Positions 4,775 to 23,049 of a stretch of 24,829 nucleotides of DNA are shown one piece after another. This stretch comes from a virus. The translations under genes were made by a program, and so were the position numbers. Position 1 is the stretch's first letter, and the number at the start of each line of letters is the position of its first letter. Location: the UHGV virus genome UHGV-0244087; one strand, given 5' to 3'. The notes below the pieces were generated by a model. It did no database searches. It was given only the letters and a program-made list of their open reading frames with translations, and had not been told where the DNA came from.

Positions 4775-6655
4775 TTATGCTGCGGGATTATTGATTTCCA
4801 GCACCAGGCTGCCGATATCGACGCCGTACGCGGCATTTTTAGTGATATCAGTTAACGTCAGCGCATTCAGCCCCAGTGTCAGACTGTCTTTTATGACCTG
4901 GAATGCCGGGCCAGCCACTCCATTCAGTTTCGGAGTAACCGTGGCACTGCCGGCGGTGAACACCAGCTCCAGCGTCTGCCAGTCGTTACTGTAATTCCCG
5001 AACTCGCCCAACTTTGTGTTTCCGGCTTTCTTGTGATGCATCAGATTCAGTTTGCCGTCTGTGGTCTGGGTGAAGAACGACATCAGGAACGGGTTACCAG
5101 TCCCGGTCATCGCCACGACGTCAGGTAACGCTACATCGGTATACAGATAAATTCCCAGACCGAACTGGTTGTTGGTCAGTGCGCCTGACAGTCGAAACTT
5201 ACAGCTCAGTCTGCCACCCCGTGTCAGCAGGGAGACTGCGTCATCCACCGGATGCATCAGGGACCAGGTTTTATTGCTCTGCTTGGTAACCTTAAACACA
5301 CCATCTTCCAGCGCAACACTGCCGCCGGTGATGGTCCAGCCCTGCGCAGCAGCCTCTCCGGCTGTCGGCAGCAGGGAGACTGTACGAACGGATGTGTCAC
5401 CATCAGACGGCCCCGATGGAGTGTCGCCGCCGGGCGAGGGTTTAATCTCCGGTGCGGTACCGCTGATGAAGGCGCTGGTTCGACCAACTGCGTTCAGAAT
5501 AGCGGTTGCCAGGCGATCCGAAATAATGCTCCTGCGCGCCCATGAACTGAAATGTGTCGGACGATTTGACGATACCCAATTACCATTACTACGGGATTGC
5601 GCGCCGTAATAACCTGCATCAGCAATATCCGGGTCTTCTGCCGGTAAGTTGGTGGGCGTGTTGTTGCCGTTACCGTCGGTCATGAACGGCACAAAGAAAA
5701 CGTTGTCGCTCTCCCTGTTTTTGTACGCGCCGTAGACGGAGTCATACTGTGTGCCGTATGTGTTTTTCCAGTAATACGTCGTGTCGCCACAAATCCACGG
5801 TACAACTGCAGCACTGCCGCCATGGCACTGCGCGTTAAATCCGGAAAGGTCAGTACGGAACTGCTTCAGCATGGCCGTGAACAGGTCCGGTTGCTGTGCG
5901 TAGGTGGCAGCGCTCATGTCAAATTCGCCCTGCATCCAGCACACCGCCAGCAACACATTTTTCGGGTTCTTCTGTAATGCAGCTTTAGTGCGCGCAATCA
6001 GGTCCTGATATAACGGTTTACCCACACCCCAGCGCGCCGAATCCTGGCTGGCCCCCGTGGTCGTACTGAATGTTCCCTCCGCGCCCTGAGTGAATGCCGA
6101 ACCACCACGGCAGCATGGTACCAGCAGGATCCCCGCGTTATTCGGGATATACGGGAGCAGTTTTTTGGCAATATGTAAGCCCTGGCCGACACAGCCGTAC
6201 TGCCCTTTGCTCAGGTCTGCCTTCGGATGATTCAGTGCGCTCATATCCTGAACATCATGCAGGCAGTGGTCTGCCGGAATGATGTCGTTAAATGCGCATG
6301 CTTTACCACCGGGAGTCACTGTGTTGCGACGGGCCAGTTGCTTAATGCGTGGGTGGGGCGCATCGTAAGAATCCGGCAGCGGCATTCCATCACCATATGA
6401 CATGGCATTGGATTGACCAGCAAGTACCACCACGTAATACCACTCCGGCACGCTGCCGTGCTGGGGGGAATCAGGTGAGATGTCTGTAGTGCCATCGGCC
6501 ACCATTGCCTGCATTAGATACCACGGGGTGCCGGGTTCGTAGGCAACCCGCGTCTCCCCCTGAAGATGCCACCCTTTCGCAAGATGTTCATTCACCTTTT
6601 GAGTCAGTTCAGCCTGTGTCATGGCTGTAATCAGTGCAAAGTTCTTACTGGTCAT
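4775..6655 (-). CDS. NanS-p-like prophage esterase: N-terminal DUF1737-type domain, central sialate O-acetylesterase (SGNH/SASA) domain, C-terminal lectin-like domain
   Basis: 626 aa. N-terminus MTSKNFALITAMTQAELTQKVNEHLAKGW; esterase motif WYYVVVLAGQSNAMSYGDG. Start ATG overlaps the LysC stop, and the gene ends 23 nt before R, so it sits inside the late operon. Confidence 0.8.
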   Translation of the reverse strand: MTSKNFALITAMTQAELTQKVNEHLAKGWHLQGETRVAYEPGTPWYLMQAMVADGTTDISPDSPQHGSVPEWYYVVVLAGQSNAMSYGDGMPLPDSYDAPHPRIKQLARRNTVTPGGKACAFNDIIPADHCLHDVQDMSALNHPKADLSKGQYGCVGQGLHIAKKLLPYIPNNAGILLVPCCRGGSAFTQGAEGTFSTTTGASQDSARWGVGKPLYQDLIARTKAALQKNPKNVLLAVCWMQGEFDMSAATYAQQPDLFTAMLKQFRTDLSGFNAQCHGGSAAVVPWICGDTTYYWKNTYGTQYDSVYGAYKNRESDNVFFVPFMTDGNGNNTPTNLPAEDPDIADAGYYGAQSRSNGNWVSSNRPTHFSSWARRSIISDRLATAILNAVGRTSAFISGTAPEIKPSPGGDTPSGPSDGDTSVRTVSLLPTAGEAAAQGWTITGGSVALEDGVFKVTKQSNKTWSLMHPVDDAVSLLTRGGRLSCKFRLSGALTNNQFGLGIYLYTDVALPDVVAMTGTGNPFLMSFFTQTTDGKLNLMHHKKAGNTKLGEFGNYSNDWQTLELVFTAGSATVTPKLNGVAGPAFQVIKDSLTLGLNALTLTDITKNAAYGVDIGSLVLEINNPAA

Positions 6656-15480: not shown

Positions 15481-15505
15481 AAAGCGCCCCTGAGGCGCTT
15501 TAGTG
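15481..15505 (-). terminator. Intrinsic terminator ending the minus-strand cargo operon
   Basis: Hairpin agcgcc-cctga-ggcgct followed on the minus strand by a T-rich run (ttttgtttg); lies about 30 nt after the stop of the 87-aa gene. Confidence 0.65.
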
Positions 15506-15535: not shown

Positions 15536-15799
15536 TTATCCTGCTGTGCTTTCAACTGATGAGGGGAACAAAATCTTTTCATCAAACCCTGCATTCATAT
15601 CATGGACAGCAACACACCAATCCATTGACGAACGATTATCAAGAGCCTCCATGATTTCATCCATGCGGCGCAGGTCATACAGGTAAATGCTTTTATCGCC
15701 AATGGTGTAAAAACCAATTTTTTTCGGTGATGGACAGCGATCAAGAACGTCCTGTAATTCGCTCAACCATGCTTGTTCTTTTTTTGTCAAAGTTGCCAT
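15536..15799 (-). CDS. Hypothetical 87-aa protein, fourth gene of the cargo operon
   Basis: ATG with an AAGGAGAG ribosome-binding site that is embedded in the last codons of the upstream gene. No family recognised. Confidence 0.6.
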   Translation of the reverse strand: MATLTKKEQAWLSELQDVLDRCPSPKKIGFYTIGDKSIYLYDLRRMDEIMEALDNRSSMDWCVAVHDMNAGFDEKILFPSSVESTAG

Positions 15800-15800
15800 A

Positions 15801-16292
15801 TCACTCTCCTTTGATGCGAATGCCAGTGGTACTCATTCTCCTGATTTCCCAGAGCACACGAGGAACACCACCGTTTCCGACCGGATCGCGTTTACTCCGC
15901 AGGGCGACGCTTGATTCCGCCCAGCTTTTTCTTGGAGGAAGCTCTTTCACACGAACAAAACCAGCTGCGCGGAGAGATGCTCCTGATTCATCTGCCTGGG
16001 TGTACGTAATACAACGTTGATAACCCATAGCCTTTGCTGCCCGCCAGACAGCACCATAAAGCGCGCTGTTAGCGTTGCGTTCTCCTGTGGTACATGTGCG
16101 ATTTACTTCAAGCGTTAATCCATCGTCCAAATGTCGTGCAACAGGTCTACCGGCTGTCGCCACACCTATCAATTCTCCGGCATCATTTCTCAGACCAATG
16201 CTGAATTTATGCCCCACCGGGGGTTTATTGTGTCGGTGATGTCTGGATATAAACGCCTTCGCAACACGAAGAGTAACCGGTGAAATTTGCAT
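15801..16292 (-). CDS. Hypothetical 163-aa protein, third gene of the cargo operon; possibly acyltransferase-like
   Basis: ATG at 16290-16292, 2 nt after the stop of the 104-aa gene, with the same embedded ribosome-binding site. A loose resemblance to GNAT-toxin N-terminal regions (FISRHHRHNKPP..IGVATAG) is not verified. Confidence 0.6.
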   Translation of the reverse strand: MQISPVTLRVAKAFISRHHRHNKPPVGHKFSIGLRNDAGELIGVATAGRPVARHLDDGLTLEVNRTCTTGERNANSALYGAVWRAAKAMGYQRCITYTQADESGASLRAAGFVRVKELPPRKSWAESSVALRSKRDPVGNGGVPRVLWEIRRMSTTGIRIKGE

Positions 16293-16294
16293 TC

Positions 16295-16609
16295 TCACTC
16301 TCCTTTGATGCCAATGTTTACAGACTGGCAAGCCTCTTTGAGCACCCAGTCAACAGCGTCTTTCCATGCTCCGGTTTCGACTGGCGGATTCTCACGCTTT
16401 ACCTGTTCATAGAAATGTACTGCTCTAACCAGTCCATCTGACGGTTTTGCCTGTAGTGCAGCCTGAGCTATGCGGTATGCCTGGAGCATACGGGCGTCGT
16501 TGATATCCATTCCGAACGGAATTTCTGATGATTGTGACTCTGCATCTTCAAGCCTGGCAATTTCTTTACGTAAGAAGTATTTCAACTCTTGTTTCTGTTT
16601 TCTGTTCAT
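16295..16609 (-). CDS. Hypothetical 104-aa helical protein, second gene of the cargo operon
   Basis: ATG overlaps the stop of the upstream gene (ATGA). C-terminus ...NIGIKGE parallels the ...GIRIKGE end of the next protein. Confidence 0.6.
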
Positions 16610-16938
16610 GCGTTTTTTTCCTTTTTGTCTGTCACTTCTTTCCTGATAATTTCATTGCACAAATCCACGCACTCATTGCAGATGTAAACAGACGGTCCGG
16701 CAATCACCTTTGTGACTTCGTACTGGGATTTATTGCAGAAGCTGCAATAAACCGTCTTCTCGCCTGAAGTCCATGTTTTGCTGGTTTCGCCAGACATCAG
16801 TTGTTTGAGGTCTTTTTCACGACGAAGAACTATCTGGCCACATTCAGCTATTTTTTGGATGTTGACATTTTCTTCTTTCGCCAGCGCTTCCATCCGCTCA
16901 ATCAGTCGCTGCGCTTTTTCTCTGTCAATGTGTTGCAT
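16606..16938 (-). CDS. 110-aa protein with a C-terminal ClpX-type C4 zinc-binding domain and an N-terminal helical region
   Basis: [41 protein letters not shown] is near-identical in pattern to the recalled E. coli ClpX N-terminal domain ([40 protein letters not shown]), with the same C-x2-C-x18-C-x2-C spacing. ATG with an AGGGGGA ribosome-binding site. Confidence 0.75.
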
Positions 16939-16972
16939 TGTGTCCCCCTTGTTTATGCTCCCGGGTTAAAGT

Positions 16973-16996
16973 CATCAGGGCGGATGCGCCCTGATG
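16973..16996. other. Perfect 10-bp-stem hairpin between parR and the zinc-binding-domain gene
   Basis: catcagggcg-gatg-cgccctgatg. No U-tract follows on the minus strand, so it is unlikely to be a simple terminator. Confidence 0.6.
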
Positions 16997-17001
16997 TTGT
17001 G

Positions 17002-17313
17002 TTATTCGGGAAATAACGCCCGGATATTTCCGGCCATCTGACTGGTTATCTGTGCGGCTGATACTGGCTGTGACGCGGGGCGTTCTGTCCTGGTTTGTGT
17101 CATTGATAACGCCTCATCATCAGCCCATGCAGCCAGTCGGTAAGCCTCTGCCGGATTCATTTTCAGTAGTGCCAGCCCGGCCAGAAAAGCCACGCGTTGA
17201 CCACTTTTGCGGGCTTCTGGTGTAAGGCTGTCCAGCCAGGCGCATGCTTCGCCTTCGTTCTTGACGGCGGCGGGCTTCAGATAGAAACTTATCCGTCTGG
17301 TTGGTGTCGTCAT
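17002..17313 (-). CDS. parR: ParR (StbB)-like centromere-binding protein
   Basis: 103 aa; RRISFYLKP..LDSLTPEARKS..AFLAGLALL..NIRALFPE parallels recalled R1 ParR (RRTIAFKLNP..LDSIPQGERSR..LTAGLALY..LRSLFPKE). AAGGAG ribosome-binding site; start 5 nt after the parM stop. Confidence 0.75.
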   Translation of the reverse strand: MTTPTRRISFYLKPAAVKNEGEACAWLDSLTPEARKSGQRVAFLAGLALLKMNPAEAYRLAAWADDEALSMTQTRTERPASQPVSAAQITSQMAGNIRALFPE

Positions 17314-17317
17314 TGGT

Positions 17318-18277
17318 TTACTCCTTGCCCATTGCGTACAGCCCATTAACCAGAGCAAACTGTGGCACCCCGTCCGCGATGAAAGTCGCATTAACTCCGC
17401 AGGCTTCGCGGATAGCGGGTGCCACAATCTCTGCCCCGCCACCGACAACCATCACCCGCCCGTAACCCGAAAAACCCGCCAGCGCGCGGATCACGCGTTG
17501 TTTCAGTGTTTCTTCCTTTTCACGAATAACCGCCATCAGGCTGGCGTAATGCGCGTCATTGTGGATGTGCTGGCGCAGCCAGGCTTCATCATGGCGATGT
17601 TCGATAATGGTATTGGCGATGTGGTGACTGGTACGCATACCGTTAGTGGCCATCACCGACAGTACGGCATCGGCCATCAGGGAAACGCCTACGTGTGGAT
17701 CGCAAAACACCTGGCTGATACCTGCCAGTTGTCCCTGAACCTTTGCCACATCCAGCGTGGTTCCGCCTAAATCCACAATCAGCAGGGATTCAAACGGACT
17801 CATGTCAGCCAGTGCCTTAAAGCCAGCCGGAATGGATTCAGGCATAACCCGTACGTTACGGATAGTGAATGCTTCGCCGTTCTGGTACTCCACCGGGCGC
17901 ATAACGTTCGCTTTTTTGCGGTTGATGTTGGCTATGTCCGGCTGTGCGTTTGTGTCGAAATACTCGCTCAGTGGCAGGGTGACAACCACATCCACCTCCT
18001 GTGGCGTGATGCCTGATTTGACCAGCGCGTGATGAATGGCAATGACATTCACATCGCTGTACTGGTATTGCGTGTCAGTCGTCTGGACAAAGCGATCGCT
18101 GACCGGATCAAAACCATAGCGCACGCCATCAAGCATGTAGTTCGCGGGCTGCGTGCCACCGAACGGCGCAGACCATTCCGACTTGAAGCTGTTCGGGCTG
18201 ATGGCGTTGCGGCGTTCGCCGTTCTCAGTCCATGCCAGCTTGATGTTGGTGGAGCCGTCATCGATACAAATTTTCAT
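17318..18277 (-). CDS. parM: ParM (StbA)-like actin-family ATPase
   Basis: 319 aa; MKICIDDGSTNIKL..ISPNSFK..YSDVNVIAIHHAL..VMPESIPAG..LIVDLGGTTLD..VGGGAE tracks recalled R1 ParM along its length. Confidence 0.85.
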   Translation of the reverse strand: MKICIDDGSTNIKLAWTENGERRNAISPNSFKSEWSAPFGGTQPANYMLDGVRYGFDPVSDRFVQTTDTQYQYSDVNVIAIHHALVKSGITPQEVDVVVTLPLSEYFDTNAQPDIANINRKKANVMRPVEYQNGEAFTIRNVRVMPESIPAGFKALADMSPFESLLIVDLGGTTLDVAKVQGQLAGISQVFCDPHVGVSLMADAVLSVMATNGMRTSHHIANTIIEHRHDEAWLRQHIHNDAHYASLMAVIREKEETLKQRVIRALAGFSGYGRVMVVGGGAEIVAPAIREACGVNATFIADGVPQFALVNGLYAMGKE

Positions 18278-18307
18278 GTCGCTTTTCCTTATGTTGATTA
18301 ATTAATC

Positions 18308-18418
18308 GTTTACGGGATTCTGAAATCCCGTTTTTGCCTGTTTTATGCGCGCTTCATATATCGCGGCGCGTTTTTTGCTCATTTACGGGATTTGTGAATC
18401 CCGTTTCTGTCTGTTTTT
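18308..18418. repeat. Two direct copies of a ~37-bp element, each with an 8-bp inverted repeat (acgggatt..aatcccgt) followed by a T-rich tail
   Basis: Copy 1 at 18308-18344 (gtttacgggattctgaaatcccgtttttgcctgtttt) and copy 2 at 18382-18418, 74 bp apart. They lie just upstream of parM, and copy 2 overlaps the last codons of A. Confidence 0.75.
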
Positions 18419-21176
18419 TGTTTCCACTGGTCAGGCCACCCCGCAGCAGGTCTGCTTTGCGGCGGGCGCGTTCAGTGGTTTCACTGATTCTCTGTGCGTG
18501 CTCTGCGTCGCGGATGGCGCGCAGCATGTCAGAAAGCACGGTAACGGGTGTTTTCATGGTGTTCTGGTCTTGCTGAAGTGTGGATGCCAGGCGTGCGGCG
18601 GCTTCGGGGTCTGATGCCCTCAGCTGTTCCAGATAGCTGGCGACCGGGTTATGGCGGATCTCCGTACTGCTTACGCCGTGGTTACGGCTCAGGCGCTGCC
18701 AGAGCTGCGTGATCCGGCTGTCCGGTCGGGTATCCGGTTTGCGTACAATTTCAAATCCCTGCGGTGCAATGATGCTGCCGTCAACGTACAGACTGCCGCC
18801 CCGTAACAGGTGCTGCATCTGCTGTTCACCGATATGCAGGCCGAGAGATTCGGCAGATTCCCGCCATTCTTTAGCGAGTAATTCGTGGTTATCAGGCAAA
18901 GGCCGCTGCTGTTTGCGGCTCTGTGTCCAGCTCTGCATTTCATCACTGCTGTTTTTTGCCTGTTTGTCACGAAGCGAACGCATCAGCGCCCGGCGTTCGT
19001 GCCGTTTCAGTGAGCGCATCCATTCGTTCACGTCAACGCCGTCAGGAAGCTGCGGCCACGGTGCTGGCCGTTCTTCCGGCTGTTCTGTCCCGTTGTTGTC
19101 CGTTTCCTGTACACGGGGACAGTTATTGCCACGAGTCCAAGGGGCGGCATGGCCGCCCTGAAGGTCAAAACCATTTTCGCGGGCGTTGTCTTCTGGTTCT
19201 GGTTTACGTCTTACCAACTTCCAGTTATCCGGATGCGTGCACACACGGGAGGATTCCCCGATGAGTGGTGACCAGATCCCGTAAATCTGTACGCTCTGTT
19301 CGCCGTAATCGTTCAGCTCATCTGCGAGGTCGTAGGCGGTGCGAATCAGGTAGTCCTTGCGTGGAACAAGCACGCCACCCTGTTTTTCAATGTAGGAGGC
19401 AAAACACCCGGCATCAGCGGCAGCGAGTACCGCATCCATTGCATCATCCTTCAGCCGTTGCGGGCCTTCCGGGTTGCGTGCCATCTGGCTGGCAAGGCGG
19501 CGGAGTTCACGCCATACCTGACGGGAGGGGATGCCAAAGAACTGGAACTGGCGGACCCGATGAAGACGCGCCCAGCCAATGGCGCGCTCCACGCTCTCGG
19601 CCATTGATTTTCCGGTTTCGTGGTCAACGCGTGGCTTGCCCGTTTTCGGGTCGATGCCATCTACGGCGCGGCTGTCCAGGTTTTTTCCGATGTAGGTCGC
19701 GATATAGCTGGTTGGTGTGCCTTTTGAGCCGTCGACATACTCCGCCTTAAAGCGCGGAGTAATATCATCGCCCAGTTCGTGACGATCTTCCTGAATGGCA
19801 ATATCGCGGGTGATGGCCACGATGCTGTCGATTTCTTCCGGATGAGCAAAGACCATCATATGCCAGTGCACGGTGCCGTCATGGTGAGGCTCCACCGTGC
19901 GGATGCCATACCAGCGCAGGCCGTCGCGGTTCAGTTTTTTGCGGACTGCCGCAAAAAACGTGTTAACCAGGTAATCGCTGGAGTCGCGCATGGTGGCCCC
20001 GTTCCATTTGGGGTTCGGATGACCGTTCTCCGTTGTTGCGTGGTATTTTGACGGGCAGGTGACGGTCAGAAACACCGCTCTGTCGCTACGGGCTTCGGCC
20101 AGAAGTTCCAGTCCCTTCATGGTGGCCATCATTTCTGCCTTACGGTGAACCGGGTTACTTACTCCCGCGTAATACACCGTCTCGAGATCAATCGTGAACC
20201 CGTCTTCATTTTCCAGCATGAAACTTTTCAGGAAATCGCGTGTTTTCTCGCGCTGTGCGCGAAACTCGCTTAACGCGTCCTGGCTCAGATAGGGCGATGT
20301 TTTTCTGGAAACCAGACAGGCGGCGCGGAGTTGTTCTTCTCTCCACTCGCAACGTAACAGCCACAGTTTGCGTTTCCACCATTCCGCACAGGTCAGGCGG
20401 AGGATTGCGCCCGGCAGCAGCTCCGTGTCCGGTTCGTTCCTCCGGTCTTTGTCTGTTGTCAGTGCGTCATAATGTGGAGGCATGGCGTGCAGGTGTAACG
20501 CCATGCGGGCCAGCATCTGATACGCCTTCAGCGTTACATCCATGGTCAGTTCGCCATCAGTCGCGCCAAAGCCATCGCAGAGTTTTTCGAAGGTGCTGCT
20601 GAACATCGCCGCCGTCATGGTGGCCAGCGTCTGTATCTGGTGTTTGTTGAGCTGCGGCAGGTAAAGCAAATCGTCCAGGCGTTCGCGTCCGGCAAGGGAG
20701 CGATAACCCGGTGTCAGCCAGCGTCTGTCAGTGCGATCCAGACGTTCGAATATTTTGCGCAGGGTTCCGCGTGCATAGCGTTCCGCCTGCCAGCTCTTTT
20801 TGCCTTTCCGGCGATCGGCTTCCTGTTTTTTGCGCAGGAAGGAGAGGTGGCGAATAAGCGGATCGCGCAGATAGGACGGCAGCAGGCGCAGCGAGGCCAT
20901 GGCTTCATCCACCGCGCCGCGTGCCCGTTTTCTGGCGTCTCCTGCCAGTGTGATGGTTTTGTCCTGTTTTTCCTGTGCGTCCAGGCTTTTATTAATCAGG
21001 TTGCCCAGCGGTGTGGCGGAGAACGCCGCATCAGCCATTTCCTGGCGGCGTTCGTTCTCTGCCCGGTAGGCATCCAGCCAGGAGGAAAGTGCGGATTCAG
21101 GTGCGGGGATCTCCGTTCCTTCACGTCCTACTGCGTGGCGCGGTTGTTGCCAGTCCCTGATGTACTCTGCCGTCAT
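18354..21176 (-). CDS. A: Replication initiation endonuclease A (rolling-circle), with a long C-terminal extension
   Basis: 940 aa, recognised as P2 gpA-like from overall sequence and position downstream of the early-region ORFs; ATG start. Recalled P2 gpA is 761 aa. Confidence 0.85.
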   Translation of the reverse strand: MTAEYIRDWQQPRHAVGREGTEIPAPESALSSWLDAYRAENERRQEMADAAFSATPLGNLINKSLDAQEKQDKTITLAGDARKRARGAVDEAMASLRLLPSYLRDPLIRHLSFLRKKQEADRRKGKKSWQAERYARGTLRKIFERLDRTDRRWLTPGYRSLAGRERLDDLLYLPQLNKHQIQTLATMTAAMFSSTFEKLCDGFGATDGELTMDVTLKAYQMLARMALHLHAMPPHYDALTTDKDRRNEPDTELLPGAILRLTCAEWWKRKLWLLRCEWREEQLRAACLVSRKTSPYLSQDALSEFRAQREKTRDFLKSFMLENEDGFTIDLETVYYAGVSNPVHRKAEMMATMKGLELLAEARSDRAVFLTVTCPSKYHATTENGHPNPKWNGATMRDSSDYLVNTFFAAVRKKLNRDGLRWYGIRTVEPHHDGTVHWHMMVFAHPEEIDSIVAITRDIAIQEDRHELGDDITPRFKAEYVDGSKGTPTSYIATYIGKNLDSRAVDGIDPKTGKPRVDHETGKSMAESVERAIGWARLHRVRQFQFFGIPSRQVWRELRRLASQMARNPEGPQRLKDDAMDAVLAAADAGCFASYIEKQGGVLVPRKDYLIRTAYDLADELNDYGEQSVQIYGIWSPLIGESSRVCTHPDNWKLVRRKPEPEDNARENGFDLQGGHAAPWTRGNNCPRVQETDNNGTEQPEERPAPWPQLPDGVDVNEWMRSLKRHERRALMRSLRDKQAKNSSDEMQSWTQSRKQQRPLPDNHELLAKEWRESAESLGLHIGEQQMQHLLRGGSLYVDGSIIAPQGFEIVRKPDTRPDSRITQLWQRLSRNHGVSSTEIRHNPVASYLEQLRASDPEAAARLASTLQQDQNTMKTPVTVLSDMLRAIRDAEHAQRISETTERARRKADLLRGGLTSGNKKQTETGFTNPVNEQKTRRDI

Positions 21177-22218: not shown

Positions 22219-23049
22219 TTACTTCACCGGAACAAACGGAACAGCGGTGTTACTGGTCATGTATTGCGGTAGCGTGCCGTTCCATTTGTTAATCGCTTCC
22301 AGCTCCATAACGCCGGGATTCTGGCGCAGAGCTTCGCCGCGTAAACGAATGGCGTCGGCTTCAGCCTGGGCTTTTGTGCGAATGGCATCGGCTTGTCCGG
22401 CAGCTTCTGCGCGCAGCATGTTGGCTTCAGCTTCGCGTTGCTTGACTTCCTGTTCACGTTGCAGGGTTTTCTGGTTTGCCGTGACTTTGGCGTTAATGCT
22501 GTCGATAACGGTTGGCGGATATTCCGGTTTACCGACATAAGAGAGGCTCATGACCTGAATACCGATGGGGGTCATCTCTTCCTGAATATCTTTAAGTGCT
22601 GAATCCAGCAGTTCAGACTTACCACCGTCGATAAACTTATCGGTGGTCATTTTGCTGGCCAGTCGGTTGAGTGCATCGGCGATCTTCTGGCGCAGGTCAG
22701 TGTCGGTAATGTCGTCCACGCCTTTGCGGTAGGTCTGAAACACCGTGGTAACTTTGGATGGATCAACTTTGTAGGCCACGCCGATGTGATAGCCGATGGT
22801 TGTGCCGTCACTCATCTGAAAGCTGAACGGCTCATCGTAGGTCTTCATTTGTTTGAAGGTCGGGAAGATGTAAACCTCGGTATTCCAGCCAGTCCAGTAG
22901 CGACCAACGCCAACCACTTCGCCAACGCCTTTGTCGTCGCCCAGCTTGTTGACTTTGATGCCCATATTACCTGGCTCAACGCGATCGCAGCCAACCAGCA
23001 GGATGGCGGCAAAAAGCGGGAGAATCTGAAAGAGTCTGAATTTCTTCAT
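22219..23049 (-). CDS. SPFH/band-7 (prohibitin/HflC-like) lipoprotein
   Basis: 276 aa; N-terminus MKKFRLFQILPLFAAILLVGC (signal peptide plus lipobox); band-7 core followed by an Ala/Glu/Arg-rich coiled coil (EAEANMLRAEAAGQADAIRTKAQAEADAIR). Confidence 0.75.
   Translation of the reverse strand: MKKFRLFQILPLFAAILLVGCDRVEPGNMGIKVNKLGDDKGVGEVVGVGRYWTGWNTEVYIFPTFKQMKTYDEPFSFQMSDGTTIGYHIGVAYKVDPSKVTTVFQTYRKGVDDITDTDLRQKIADALNRLASKMTTDKFIDGGKSELLDSALKDIQEEMTPIGIQVMSLSYVGKPEYPPTVIDSINAKVTANQKTLQREQEVKQREAEANMLRAEAAGQADAIRTKAQAEADAIRLRGEALRQNPGVMELEAINKWNGTLPQYMTSNTAVPFVPVK

What the first reader, a model, noticed from the sequence alone, without database searches (positions are those of the whole stretch)
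17002..18277. Type II plasmid partition pair (ParM/ParR) inside a P2-like prophage
Both proteins track recalled plasmid R1 ParM and ParR closely. The pair sits directly downstream of replication gene A on the same strand. Partition systems are characteristic of plasmids and phage-plasmids, not of canonical integrating P2-like phages. The element may have an episomal lifestyle, or the cytoskeletal pair may be co-opted for another role such as genome positioning or exclusion.
Basis: partly seen in the sequence, partly recalled or inferred. Interest (0 to 1): 0.7.

Follow-up and report, generated by a model that had tools for sequence, protein, structure and literature searches.

The report
ParM/ParR partition genes in P88-like prophage
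A common P2-family prophage of E. coli (phage P88 type) really does carry an intact plasmid-style DNA-segregation gene pair next to its replication gene. The pair is already annotated and discussed in the literature, and the phage normally sits integrated in the chromosome.

Summary
On the minus strand, parM (17318-18277) and parR (true start 17313, so 17002-17313) lie directly downstream of replication gene A. ParM is 47% identical to R1-type ParM. ParR is only 25% identical to R1 ParR but belongs to the same family.

The window is a P88-like P2-family phage (genus Xuanwuvirus). Its parMR pair is annotated in RefSeq and PHROGs, and Pfeifer et al. 2021 already proposed that P88 may have both episomal and integrative states.

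What I add:
- parM is a core gene of this phage type. It is present in about 1280 of 5426 complete E. coli genomes, at 1441 chromosomal places against 2 on plasmids.
- It is under strong purifying selection (dN/dS 0.04-0.16).
- ParM relatives at 54-63% identity occupy the same slot (A, parM, parR, variable cargo, portal) in P2-like prophages of Plesiomonas, Hafnia, Serratia and Enterobacter.
- The upstream region has two 20-bp palindromes about 73 bp apart and no promoter match. It lacks the ten 11-bp iterons of plasmid parC.

The most likely role is segregation of the circular extrachromosomal phage genome after infection or excision, as in SXT/R391 srpMRC and CGP3 AlpAC. This is untested. 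A stable plasmid lifestyle is not supported.

The parts
18354..21176 (-). Replication initiator gene A (940 aa, P2 gpA family). It is the gene immediately upstream of parM on the same strand. Its last codons contain the distal palindrome.
   Evidence: Pfam Phage_GPA 9.1e-130. Other P2-like gpA proteins align only to residues 9-796.
18379..18420 (-). Distal copy of a 42-nt direct repeat. It contains the 20-bp palindrome ACGGGATT-N4-AATCCCGT (18385-18404), 128 nt upstream of the parM ATG. Candidate ParR site (parC-like).
   Evidence: (2 matches in the window, 0.06 expected). A similar palindrome lies at -129 in the Hafnia prophage.
18306..18347 (-). Proximal copy of the 42-nt repeat, with its palindrome at 18312-18331, 55 nt upstream of the parM ATG in the A-parM intergenic region. 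Candidate ParR site or operator.
   Evidence: In 7 P88-like sequences the arms are invariant and changes fall only in the 4-nt spacer.
17318..18277 (-). parM, an actin-fold segregation ATPase of 319 aa.
   Evidence: Pfam StbA_N 3.6e-82 and ParM C-terminal domain 1.3e-68. PDB R1 ParM E 2.5e-93, with the nucleotide-binding motifs IDDGSTNIK, MPESIPAG, DLGGTTLD and VGGGAE aligned. dN/dS 0.035-0.16. PHROG 691 'partition protein'.
17002..17313 (-). parR, a 103-aa adaptor and DNA-binding protein. Its ATG lies 4 nt after the parM stop.
   Evidence: Pfam PF10784 6.2e-24. PHROG 2515 4.4e-58. ParR profile hits pB171 ParR 2JD3 at 1.1e-16. The N-terminal RRISFYLKP strand and the C-terminal N-x-x-x-LFP tail are conserved with plasmid ParRs.
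16973..16996 (.). GC-rich hairpin just after the parR stop. It marks the boundary where P88-like phages start to differ (variable cargo).
   Evidence: Megablast matches of other P88-like phages break at query positions 77-110, which is window 16976-17009.
15536..16938 (-). Variable cargo genes on the same strand downstream of parR: a protein consisting only of a ClpX zinc finger, a hypothetical protein, a Mom-like/XF1762 protein and an 87-aa ORF. They are not part of the partition module but are probably in the same transcript.
   Evidence: No PADLOC hit.
15481..15501 (-). First strong terminator-like hairpin on the minus strand downstream of A-parM-parR. Inferred end of the transcription unit.

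Best explanation
This is a functional type II (ParMRC-type) DNA segregation module. It is a core part of the replication/early region of P88-like P2-family temperate phages.

**Shown**
- Intact ParM and ParR genes under purifying selection.
- Conserved synteny A-parM-parR in several diverged P2-like prophage lineages.
- Normal residence as an integrated prophage.

**Inferred mechanism**
- parMR is transcribed with gene A from the early operon, so it is made when the phage genome is derepressed and extrachromosomal. That means after infection (before integration) or after excision.
- ParR dimers bind the two palindromes upstream of parM, at -128 and -55.
- ParR's conserved C-terminal tails capture ParM filament ends, and filament growth pushes circular phage genomes apart.
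- Both daughter cells therefore keep a copy, and the replicating circles are spread through the cell.

The module would thus reduce loss of the element during its plasmid-like phase. It would not maintain a permanent plasmid prophage.
For: **Family membership**
- Searches place both proteins in the ParM and ParR families.
- The ParR C-terminal ParM-binding motif is conserved with R1 and other plasmid ParRs.

**Selection**
- parM dN/dS is 0.035-0.16, against 0.12-0.13 for gpA. parR dN/dS is 0.18-0.36. All copies are free of stop codons.

**Core gene of the phage type**
- All 14 phage records with P88-type gpA carry parM.
- parM is near full length (>=80% of the gene matched) in 1279 complete E. 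coli genomes, against 1320 for P88-type gpA.

**Old association with P2-like phages**
- ParM relatives at 54-63% identity sit in the same A-parM-parR-cargo-portal slot in Plesiomonas, Hafnia, Serratia and Enterobacter ludwigii prophages.
- All relatives I checked at 53% identity or below are on plasmids or an ICE.

**Candidate binding sites**
- Two sites about 70-73 bp apart recur at nearly the same distance from the ATG in E. coli (-128/-55), Hafnia (-129/-59) and Plesiomonas (-133/-61).
- The arms of the proximal palindrome are invariant while its spacer varies.

**Transcription context**
- There is no sigma-70-like promoter and no minus-strand terminator between A and parM. An R1-type parC has TTGACT-16-TAAACT between its iteron clusters.

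**Free circular form**
- One complete circular phage genome has been deposited as a 34.5-kb replicon.

**Precedents in integrating elements**
- srpMRC stabilises the excised, rolling-circle-replicating form of SXT/R391 ICEs (PMC4489591).
- AlpAC of prophage CGP3 links circular phage DNA to actin-like filaments and is needed for efficient replication (PMC4446434).
Against: - No experiment exists for this module in the literature I searched.
- The upstream region lacks the canonical 10 x 11-bp iterons. The 11-bp autocorrelation seen in plasmid parC (0.41-0.48 at lag 11 in two of three plasmid loci) is absent here. Two sites may be too few for a ring-like segrosome, so they could be only an operator.
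- The distal palindrome is less conserved than the proximal one, and it lies in coding sequence.
- The promoter and terminator inference rests on simple consensus scans.
- P2-type phages without parMR lysogenise and replicate perfectly well, so any benefit is not essential.
Confidence: 0.5

Rival explanations
1. Lytic-cycle genome organiser, like AlpAC. ParM filaments position or disperse the many monomeric circles made by gpA-driven rolling-circle replication. This would improve replication or packaging efficiency rather than inheritance in dividing cells.
For: - parMR lies directly behind gene A with no intervening promoter or terminator.
- The AlpAC precedent: it is induced early and required for efficient phage replication.
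- The module is a core gene of active, inducible phages, namely P88 and phiSM.
Against: - Most P2-like phages replicate without it.
- ParM is a canonical bipolar pusher that is closest to plasmid partition ParMs.
- This reading is not mutually exclusive with the main explanation.
Confidence: 0.25
2. Facultative phage-plasmid. P88-like phages can persist for many generations as an autonomously replicating, ParMRC-partitioned episome, as an alternative to integration. This is the reading of the first reader and of Pfeifer et al. 2021.
For: - Pfeifer et al. classed P88 as a putative phage-plasmid.
- NZ_CP148288.1 is a closed 34,461-bp circle of the whole phage.
- The only other phage in the collection with a ParM homologue is D6, a 91-kb phage whose gene is annotated as a StbA-type plasmid stability protein. 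That D6 is a P1-like phage-plasmid is my background knowledge.
Against: - 1441 chromosomal places against 2 plasmid places in complete E. coli genomes.
- Integrase, repressor, Cox and att repeats are present. Different integrases target different chromosomal sites, pdxB and serS/dmsA.
- The identical phage is chromosomal in a sibling isolate. The circular record may simply be an excised, induced copy.
- gpA is a rolling-circle initiator, not a theta plasmid replicon.
Confidence: 0.12
3. The module acts on other DNA. It could cause incompatibility or exclusion against plasmids or superinfecting P88-like phages carrying the same sites, or give some host benefit while integrated.
For: - parC regions are known to exert incompatibility (established knowledge for R1).
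- The module borders the variable cargo/defence hotspot between A and the portal gene.
Against: - No PADLOC match for ParM, ParR or their neighbours.
- ParM is at most about 52% identical to any plasmid ParM, and ParR is about 25% identical to R1 ParR, so cross-reaction is unlikely.
- The module itself is conserved while the neighbouring cargo varies. That is the opposite of what is expected for a defence cargo.
Confidence: 0.06
4. An inactive relic of an old recombination with a plasmid, retained only by linkage.
For: Some truncated ParM clusters exist in the protein database, at 188-261 aa with hundreds of members.
Against: - dN/dS is 0.035-0.16 and every copy I examined has an intact reading frame.
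- 98% of the E. coli genomes that carry the gene have a near-full-length copy, >=80% of the gene matched.
- Synteny is retained across lineages that have diverged to 54-63% identity.
Confidence: 0.03

Closest known systems
ParMRC (parA/stb locus) of plasmid R1/NR1 and related IncF plasmids; pB171 ParR (PDB 2JD3)
   Same: - Same gene order, with the sites upstream, then parM, then parR.
- ParM is 47% identical over its full length, with all nucleotide-binding motifs aligned.
- ParR belongs to the same Pfam family, and its profile hits 2JD3 at 1.1e-16.
- The C-terminal ParM-binding tail motif is shared.
   Different: - It lies on an integrating P2-family phage, not a plasmid.
- ParR is shorter (103 aa, with a segment in the middle of the protein missing relative to other ParRs) and only 25% identical to R1 ParR.
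- Upstream there are two 20-bp palindromes 73 bp apart instead of 2 x 5 direct 11-bp iterons, and no promoter match between them.
- The phage ParMs form two lineages of their own, each with 100/100 bootstrap support.
Escherichia phage P88 / Xuanwuvirus (also phiSM, P884B11, PhiR44_2)
   Same: This is the same element. The parMR region is 100% identical to PhiR44_2 and 98% identical to P88. The genes are annotated there as ParM and partition protein.
   Different: Only the cargo downstream of parR, the early-region alleles, and the integrase and attachment site differ.
srpMRC of SXT/R391 integrative conjugative elements (Carraro et al. 2015, PMC4489591)
   Same: It is a type II partition locus on an element that normally lives integrated and replicates by a rolling-circle initiator when excised. 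It is expressed only with the excision and transfer genes, and it stabilises the transient circular form.
   Different: - The element is an ICE, not a phage.
- SrpM and SrpR are only distantly related to R1 ParM and ParR, whereas the phage proteins are clear family members.
- Function has been shown for srpMRC but not here.
AlpAC/alpS of Corynebacterium glutamicum prophage CGP3 (Donovan et al. 2015, PMC4446434)
   Same: An integrated prophage encodes an actin-like protein plus a co-transcribed adaptor that binds sites upstream of its own operon. It is induced early and acts on circular phage DNA.
   Different: - AlpC is a distant actin-like protein in a Gram-positive host.
- Its demonstrated role is efficient replication and transport, not inheritance.
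Phage-plasmid partition systems (P1/P7 ParAB, N15 SopAB, D6 StbA-type ParM)
   Same: A temperate phage encodes an active partition system. D6 ParM is 48% identical.
   Different: Those phages are maintained as plasmids and do not integrate (established knowledge). P88-like phages carry an integrase and are found in the chromosome.

Membership tests
Type II (ParMRC) partition system | Actin-fold ATPase ParM with both ParM domains and intact nucleotide-binding motifs | tested here: met
   Pfam StbA_N 3.6e-82 and ParM C-terminal domain 1.3e-68. R1 ParM structures E 2.5e-93 over residues 2-317, with DDGSTNIK, MPES, DLGGTT and GGGAE aligned.
Type II (ParMRC) partition system | Small ParR adaptor of the ribbon-helix-helix ParR/StbB family, encoded immediately downstream of parM | tested here: met
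   Pfam PF10784 6.2e-24. Profile hit to pB171 ParR 2JD3 at 1.1e-16. The start codon lies 4 nt after the parM stop. The fold itself was not modelled.
Type II (ParMRC) partition system | ParR C-terminal tail that docks onto ParM | tested here: inconclusive
   The motif (K/R)-x-N-x-x-x-L-F-P at the extreme C-terminus is conserved with R1 (KKNAMKLIN) and other plasmid ParRs. Binding itself cannot be tested here.
Type II (ParMRC) partition system | parC centromere: arrays of direct iterons (10 x 11 bp in R1) upstream of parM, flanking the operon's own promoter | tested here: not met
   - Only two 20-bp palindromes within a 42-nt repeat, 73 bp apart.
- No 11-bp periodicity. The plasmid controls show 0.36-0.48 identity at lag 11, highest in the R1-like and Cronobacter loci.
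- No promoter match, whereas the R1-like control has one.
- A centromere of different design is possible but unproven.
Type II (ParMRC) partition system | Stabilises a low-copy replicon in vivo | not testable with these tools
   Needs a plasmid stabilisation assay.
Phage-plasmid | The lysogenic state is maintained as an extrachromosomal replicon | tested here: not met
   - 1441 chromosomal against 2 plasmid places.
- The nearest genome has the element between serS and dmsA with an integrase and a 20-bp flanking repeat.
- One circular 34.5-kb record exists, but the same phage is chromosomal in a sibling strain.
Phage-plasmid | Carries phage structural and lysis genes together with plasmid-type partition genes | tested here: met
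   Full set of P2-type head, tail and lysis genes plus parMR.
P88-like phages (genus Xuanwuvirus, Peduoviridae) | High nucleotide identity and synteny with phage P88 | tested here: met
   98.1% identity over 16900-18450 to P88 and 100% to PhiR44_2. gpA is 97.4% identical at protein level. Gene order is the same.

The most novel reading that the evidence does not exclude
P88-like phages may use a minimal, two-palindrome centromere with ParMR to run a real but transient plasmid phase: rolling-circle replication by gpA plus active partition. Lysogeny in a quarter of E. coli strains would then be a mixed integrated/episomal state, and the P2-associated ParMR lineages would define a distinct subclass of type II partition systems adapted to integrating phages.
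Probability: 0.15. Interest if true: 0.6.

Novelty: already known. Interest (0 to 1): 0.35.

Why it matters
About a quarter of complete E. coli genomes, including ST131, O157, O145 and O26 strains, carry this phage type with an intact, selected ParMR pair, yet I found no experiment on it.

It offers a tractable E. coli system, with inducible P88 and spontaneously active phiSM, for asking why integrating elements keep partition machinery. That question has so far been addressed only for SXT/R391 ICEs and one Corynebacterium prophage.

If the two-palindrome region works as a centromere, it would also show how small a type II centromere can be.

As a genome-scan finding, however, it is an already annotated and already discussed feature.

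Tried and rejected
1. **Single-sequence PDB search with ParR.** It found nothing. A profile of 11 ParRs was needed.
2. **R1-like iterons upstream of parM.** There is no 11-bp periodicity in the phage loci, so I dropped my first impression of phased AAAC units.
3. **Palindromes as terminators.** In the window they look like plus-strand terminators. The equivalent Hafnia palindromes have no T-run after the hairpin on either strand (sequence), so this reading is not conserved.
4. **Defence-system reading.** There are no PADLOC hits for ParM, ParR or five neighbours.
5. **Hok/Gef as a plasmid-lifestyle marker.** The prophage has a hok gene outside the window. Homologues are also common in integrating Stx phages, so it carries no signal.
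6. **gpA C-terminal extension as a hidden third partition component.** It has no significant similarity to the extra ORFs or gpA tails in the other lineages.
7. **Does the strain with the circular 34.5-kb record lack an integrated copy?** That assembly is not in the E. coli collection. I found only a sibling strain with the identical phage integrated, so this is inconclusive.
8. **A single origin of all P2-associated ParMs.** The neighbour-joining clade is recovered, but with only 49-55% bootstrap support. Two sublineages each have 100%. One capture versus two is therefore unresolved.
9. **The search for related loci with ParM.** It returned only three near-identical loci. The diverged relatives came from the protein search.

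Full report
**What is there.** Between 17002 and 18277 the minus strand carries two genes.
- The 319-aa product of 17318-18277 matches both Pfam ParM domains (StbA_N 3.6e-82; ParM C-terminal domain 1.3e-68).
- It aligns end to end with the solved R1 ParM structures (1mwk, E 2.5e-93). The phosphate-binding, catalytic and adenosine motifs (IDDGSTNIK, MPESIPAG, DLGGTTLD, VGGGAE) are all in register.
- The second gene was listed mechanically as 17002-17448, but its Pfam Plasmid_stab_B match (6.2e-24) starts at residue 51.
- The sequence shows AAGGAG, then the parM stop, then 4 nt, then an ATG at 17313. ParR is therefore 103 aa (17002-17313), as RefSeq annotates it.
- Gene A (18354-21176, Phage_GPA 9.1e-130) ends 76 bp upstream of parM on the same strand.
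'Closely tracks R1' is accurate for ParM (47.2% identity) and generous for ParR (25.5%). A profile of eleven ParRs does hit the pB171 ParR structure 2JD3 at 1.1e-16.

**What the element is.**
- The parMR region is 100% identical to Escherichia phage PhiR44_2 and 98% identical to phage P88. It also matches P884B11, phiSM, Chuche, 520873 and others. These are P88-like members of the Peduoviridae; the P88 and P884B11 records place them in genus Xuanwuvirus.
- The whole window is 99.3% identical to a prophage in the E. coli DA33135 chromosome.
- That prophage lies between serS and dmsA. It has an integrase, a C-type repressor, Cox, ogr and a full P2-type structural set, and it is flanked by a 20-bp direct repeat.
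- Another copy with a different integrase sits next to pdxB. This is an ordinary integrating prophage.

**How common and how conserved.**
- In 5426 complete E. coli genomes, parM matches in 1303 and is near full length (at least 80% of the gene matched) in 1279. It sits at 1441 chromosomal and 2 plasmid places.
- P88-type gene A is near full length in 1320 genomes, so the two genes travel together.
- In the phage collection, all 14 records with P88-type gpA (at least 85% identity) have ParM. The other 370 gpA-bearing records (under 60% identity; the best of them about 42%) do not. The only other phage with a ParM homologue is D6 (48%).
- Against other P88-like copies, parM has dN/dS 0.035-0.16, parR 0.18-0.36 and gpA 0.12-0.13. 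All copies have open reading frames.
- Both proteins already have PHROG families named 'partition protein'.

**Deeper relatives.**
- No plasmid ParM is more than about 52% identical, apart from plasmid records that carry the phage itself.
- The protein search found intermediates at 54-63% identity. All four that I checked lie in P2-like prophages in the same slot: gene A, sometimes one or two extra ORFs, parM, parR, variable cargo, portal. They are from Plesiomonas, Hafnia, Serratia and Enterobacter ludwigii.
- Relatives at 53% identity or below are on Rep3/ParA plasmids or an integrated conjugative element.
- In a neighbour-joining tree the P2-context ParMs form one group, but with only 49-55% bootstrap support. 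Two sublineages have 100% support each: Escherichia+Hafnia+Plesiomonas, and Serratia+Enterobacter.
- gpA and ParM identities are discordant. For Serratia against E. ludwigii, ParM is 74.5% identical and gpA 36.6%. The module therefore moves between P2-like phages by recombination but always lands in the same place.
- The variable cargo region begins exactly at the parR stop. A second breakpoint inside parR, near 17259, gives two ParR alleles that are 56% identical. They share the same N-terminal strand, the same C-terminal motif, the same ParM and the same upstream DNA.

**The candidate centromere.**
- Plasmid loci show the classic parC: two clusters of 11-bp iterons (identity at lag 11 of 0.36-0.48, highest in the R1-like and Cronobacter loci). 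In the R1-type control they flank a promoter, TTGACT-16-TAAACT.
- The phage has no such periodicity. Instead it has a 42-nt direct repeat, two copies 73 bp apart, each containing the palindrome ACGGGATT-N4-AATCCCGT. These lie at 18312-18331 and 18385-18404. There are 2 matches in the window against 0.06 expected.
- The palindromes start 55 and 128 nt upstream of the parM ATG. The distal one lies in the last codons of gene A.
- Hafnia has GGGATT-N4-AAACCC at -129 and a GGGTT...AATCCC palindrome at -59. Plesiomonas has a 26-nt repeat at -133 and -61. Serratia shares the 17-mer AACAGGCAAAAACGGGA with the window.
- Among seven P88-like sequences, the proximal arms are invariant and only the 4-nt spacer changes. 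The distal site tolerates two changes.
- This pattern fits binding sites for a dimeric ribbon-helix-helix protein. It does not fit a conserved terminator, because the Hafnia sites lack a T-run after the hairpin on either strand.
- Whether two sites suffice for a centromere or serve only as an operator is unknown.

**Expression context (inference).**
- Consensus scans find no sigma-70-like promoter and no minus-strand terminator between gene A and parM.
- The first strong minus-strand terminator lies at 15481-15501, after the cargo genes.
- parMR is therefore probably part of the early transcript that includes gene A. It would be made when the genome is derepressed and extrachromosomal.

**Most likely function.**
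- The module is an intact, selected ParMR pair tied to the rolling-circle initiator of an integrating phage.
- The best-supported reading is segregation of circular phage genomes during the extrachromosomal phase, either before integration or after excision.
- This mirrors srpMRC, which stabilises the excised, rolling-circle-replicating form of SXT/R391 ICEs (PMC4489591).
- It overlaps with the AlpAC system of prophage CGP3, which tethers circular phage DNA to actin-like filaments and is needed for efficient replication (PMC4446434).
- I put about 0.5 on the inheritance and stabilisation version and 0.25 on a purely lytic-cycle organiser.
- A stable plasmid lifestyle (about 0.12) is argued against by the 1441:2 chromosomal bias and by the integrase and attachment-site machinery.
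- One closed 34,461-bp circle of the whole phage has been deposited as a plasmid. The identical phage is chromosomal in a sibling isolate.
- Exclusion or incompatibility roles (no PADLOC hits) and a dead relic (dN/dS) are unlikely.

**Novelty.**
- The genes are annotated as ParM and partition protein in RefSeq phage and genome records and in PHROGs.
- Magaziner et al. [quoted passage not shown]
- Pfeifer et al. [quoted passage not shown] - I found no functional study.
- The finding is therefore real but already known. This analysis adds three things: the gene's core status, the conserved slot across diverged P2-like prophages, and the non-canonical two-palindrome upstream architecture.

Noticed in passing
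window 16606-16938 (-): A 110-aa protein whose only recognisable part is a ClpX C4 zinc finger (Pfam 6.8e-18). It is the first gene of the variable cargo right after parR. It could mimic or titrate ClpX adaptor binding.
   Followed up: no
window 15801-16331 (-): Mom-like/XF1762 family protein (PHROG 1384 'Mom-like DNA modification protein' 9.6e-43; Pfam Mom 8.6e-5, below its cut-off), located in the cargo region between parR and the portal gene.
   Followed up: no
window 4775-6655 (-): A 626-aa ORF, annotated as a DUF6645 protein in the closest genome. It is inserted between the lysis genes and the tail genes, which is a second cargo site of this prophage.
   Followed up: no
window 18354-18790 (-), the C-terminal ~144 aa of gpA: gpA is 940 aa, but other P2-like gpA proteins align only to residues 9-796. 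The extension has no detectable homologue in the other ParMR-bearing prophages, and its last codons overlap the distal palindrome.
   Followed up: partly
window ~17259 (inside parR); L018:2241-2555: P88-like phages carry two ParR alleles that are 56% identical, with a recombination breakpoint after about codon 18. They share the same ParM, the same upstream DNA, and identical N-terminal strand and C-terminal LFPE tail.
   Followed up: partly
L003 (NZ_CP148288.1, 1-34461): A closed 34,461-bp 'plasmid' of E. coli Z1323PEC0009 is a complete P88-like phage genome, including the integrase. The identical phage is integrated in sibling strain Z1323HEC0067. I could not determine whether the first strain also has an integrated copy.
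   Followed up: partly
L020:1852-1992 (outside the window, ogr end of the prophage): A Hok/Gef family toxin gene lies next to the attachment site of P88-like prophages. Homologues are also widespread in integrating Stx phages, so it says nothing about lifestyle.
   Followed up: yes
L007 (NZ_JBQPOM010000071.1): A 226-kb contig labelled Vagococcus sp. carries a P88-like parM that is 97% identical to the E. coli one. This is probably contamination or mislabelling of the assembly.
   Followed up: no
window 22219-23049 (-): A 276-aa early-region gene, annotated as an SPFH-domain protein in the closest genome (L020:34192-35022). This is unusual cargo inside the early operon.
   Followed up: no
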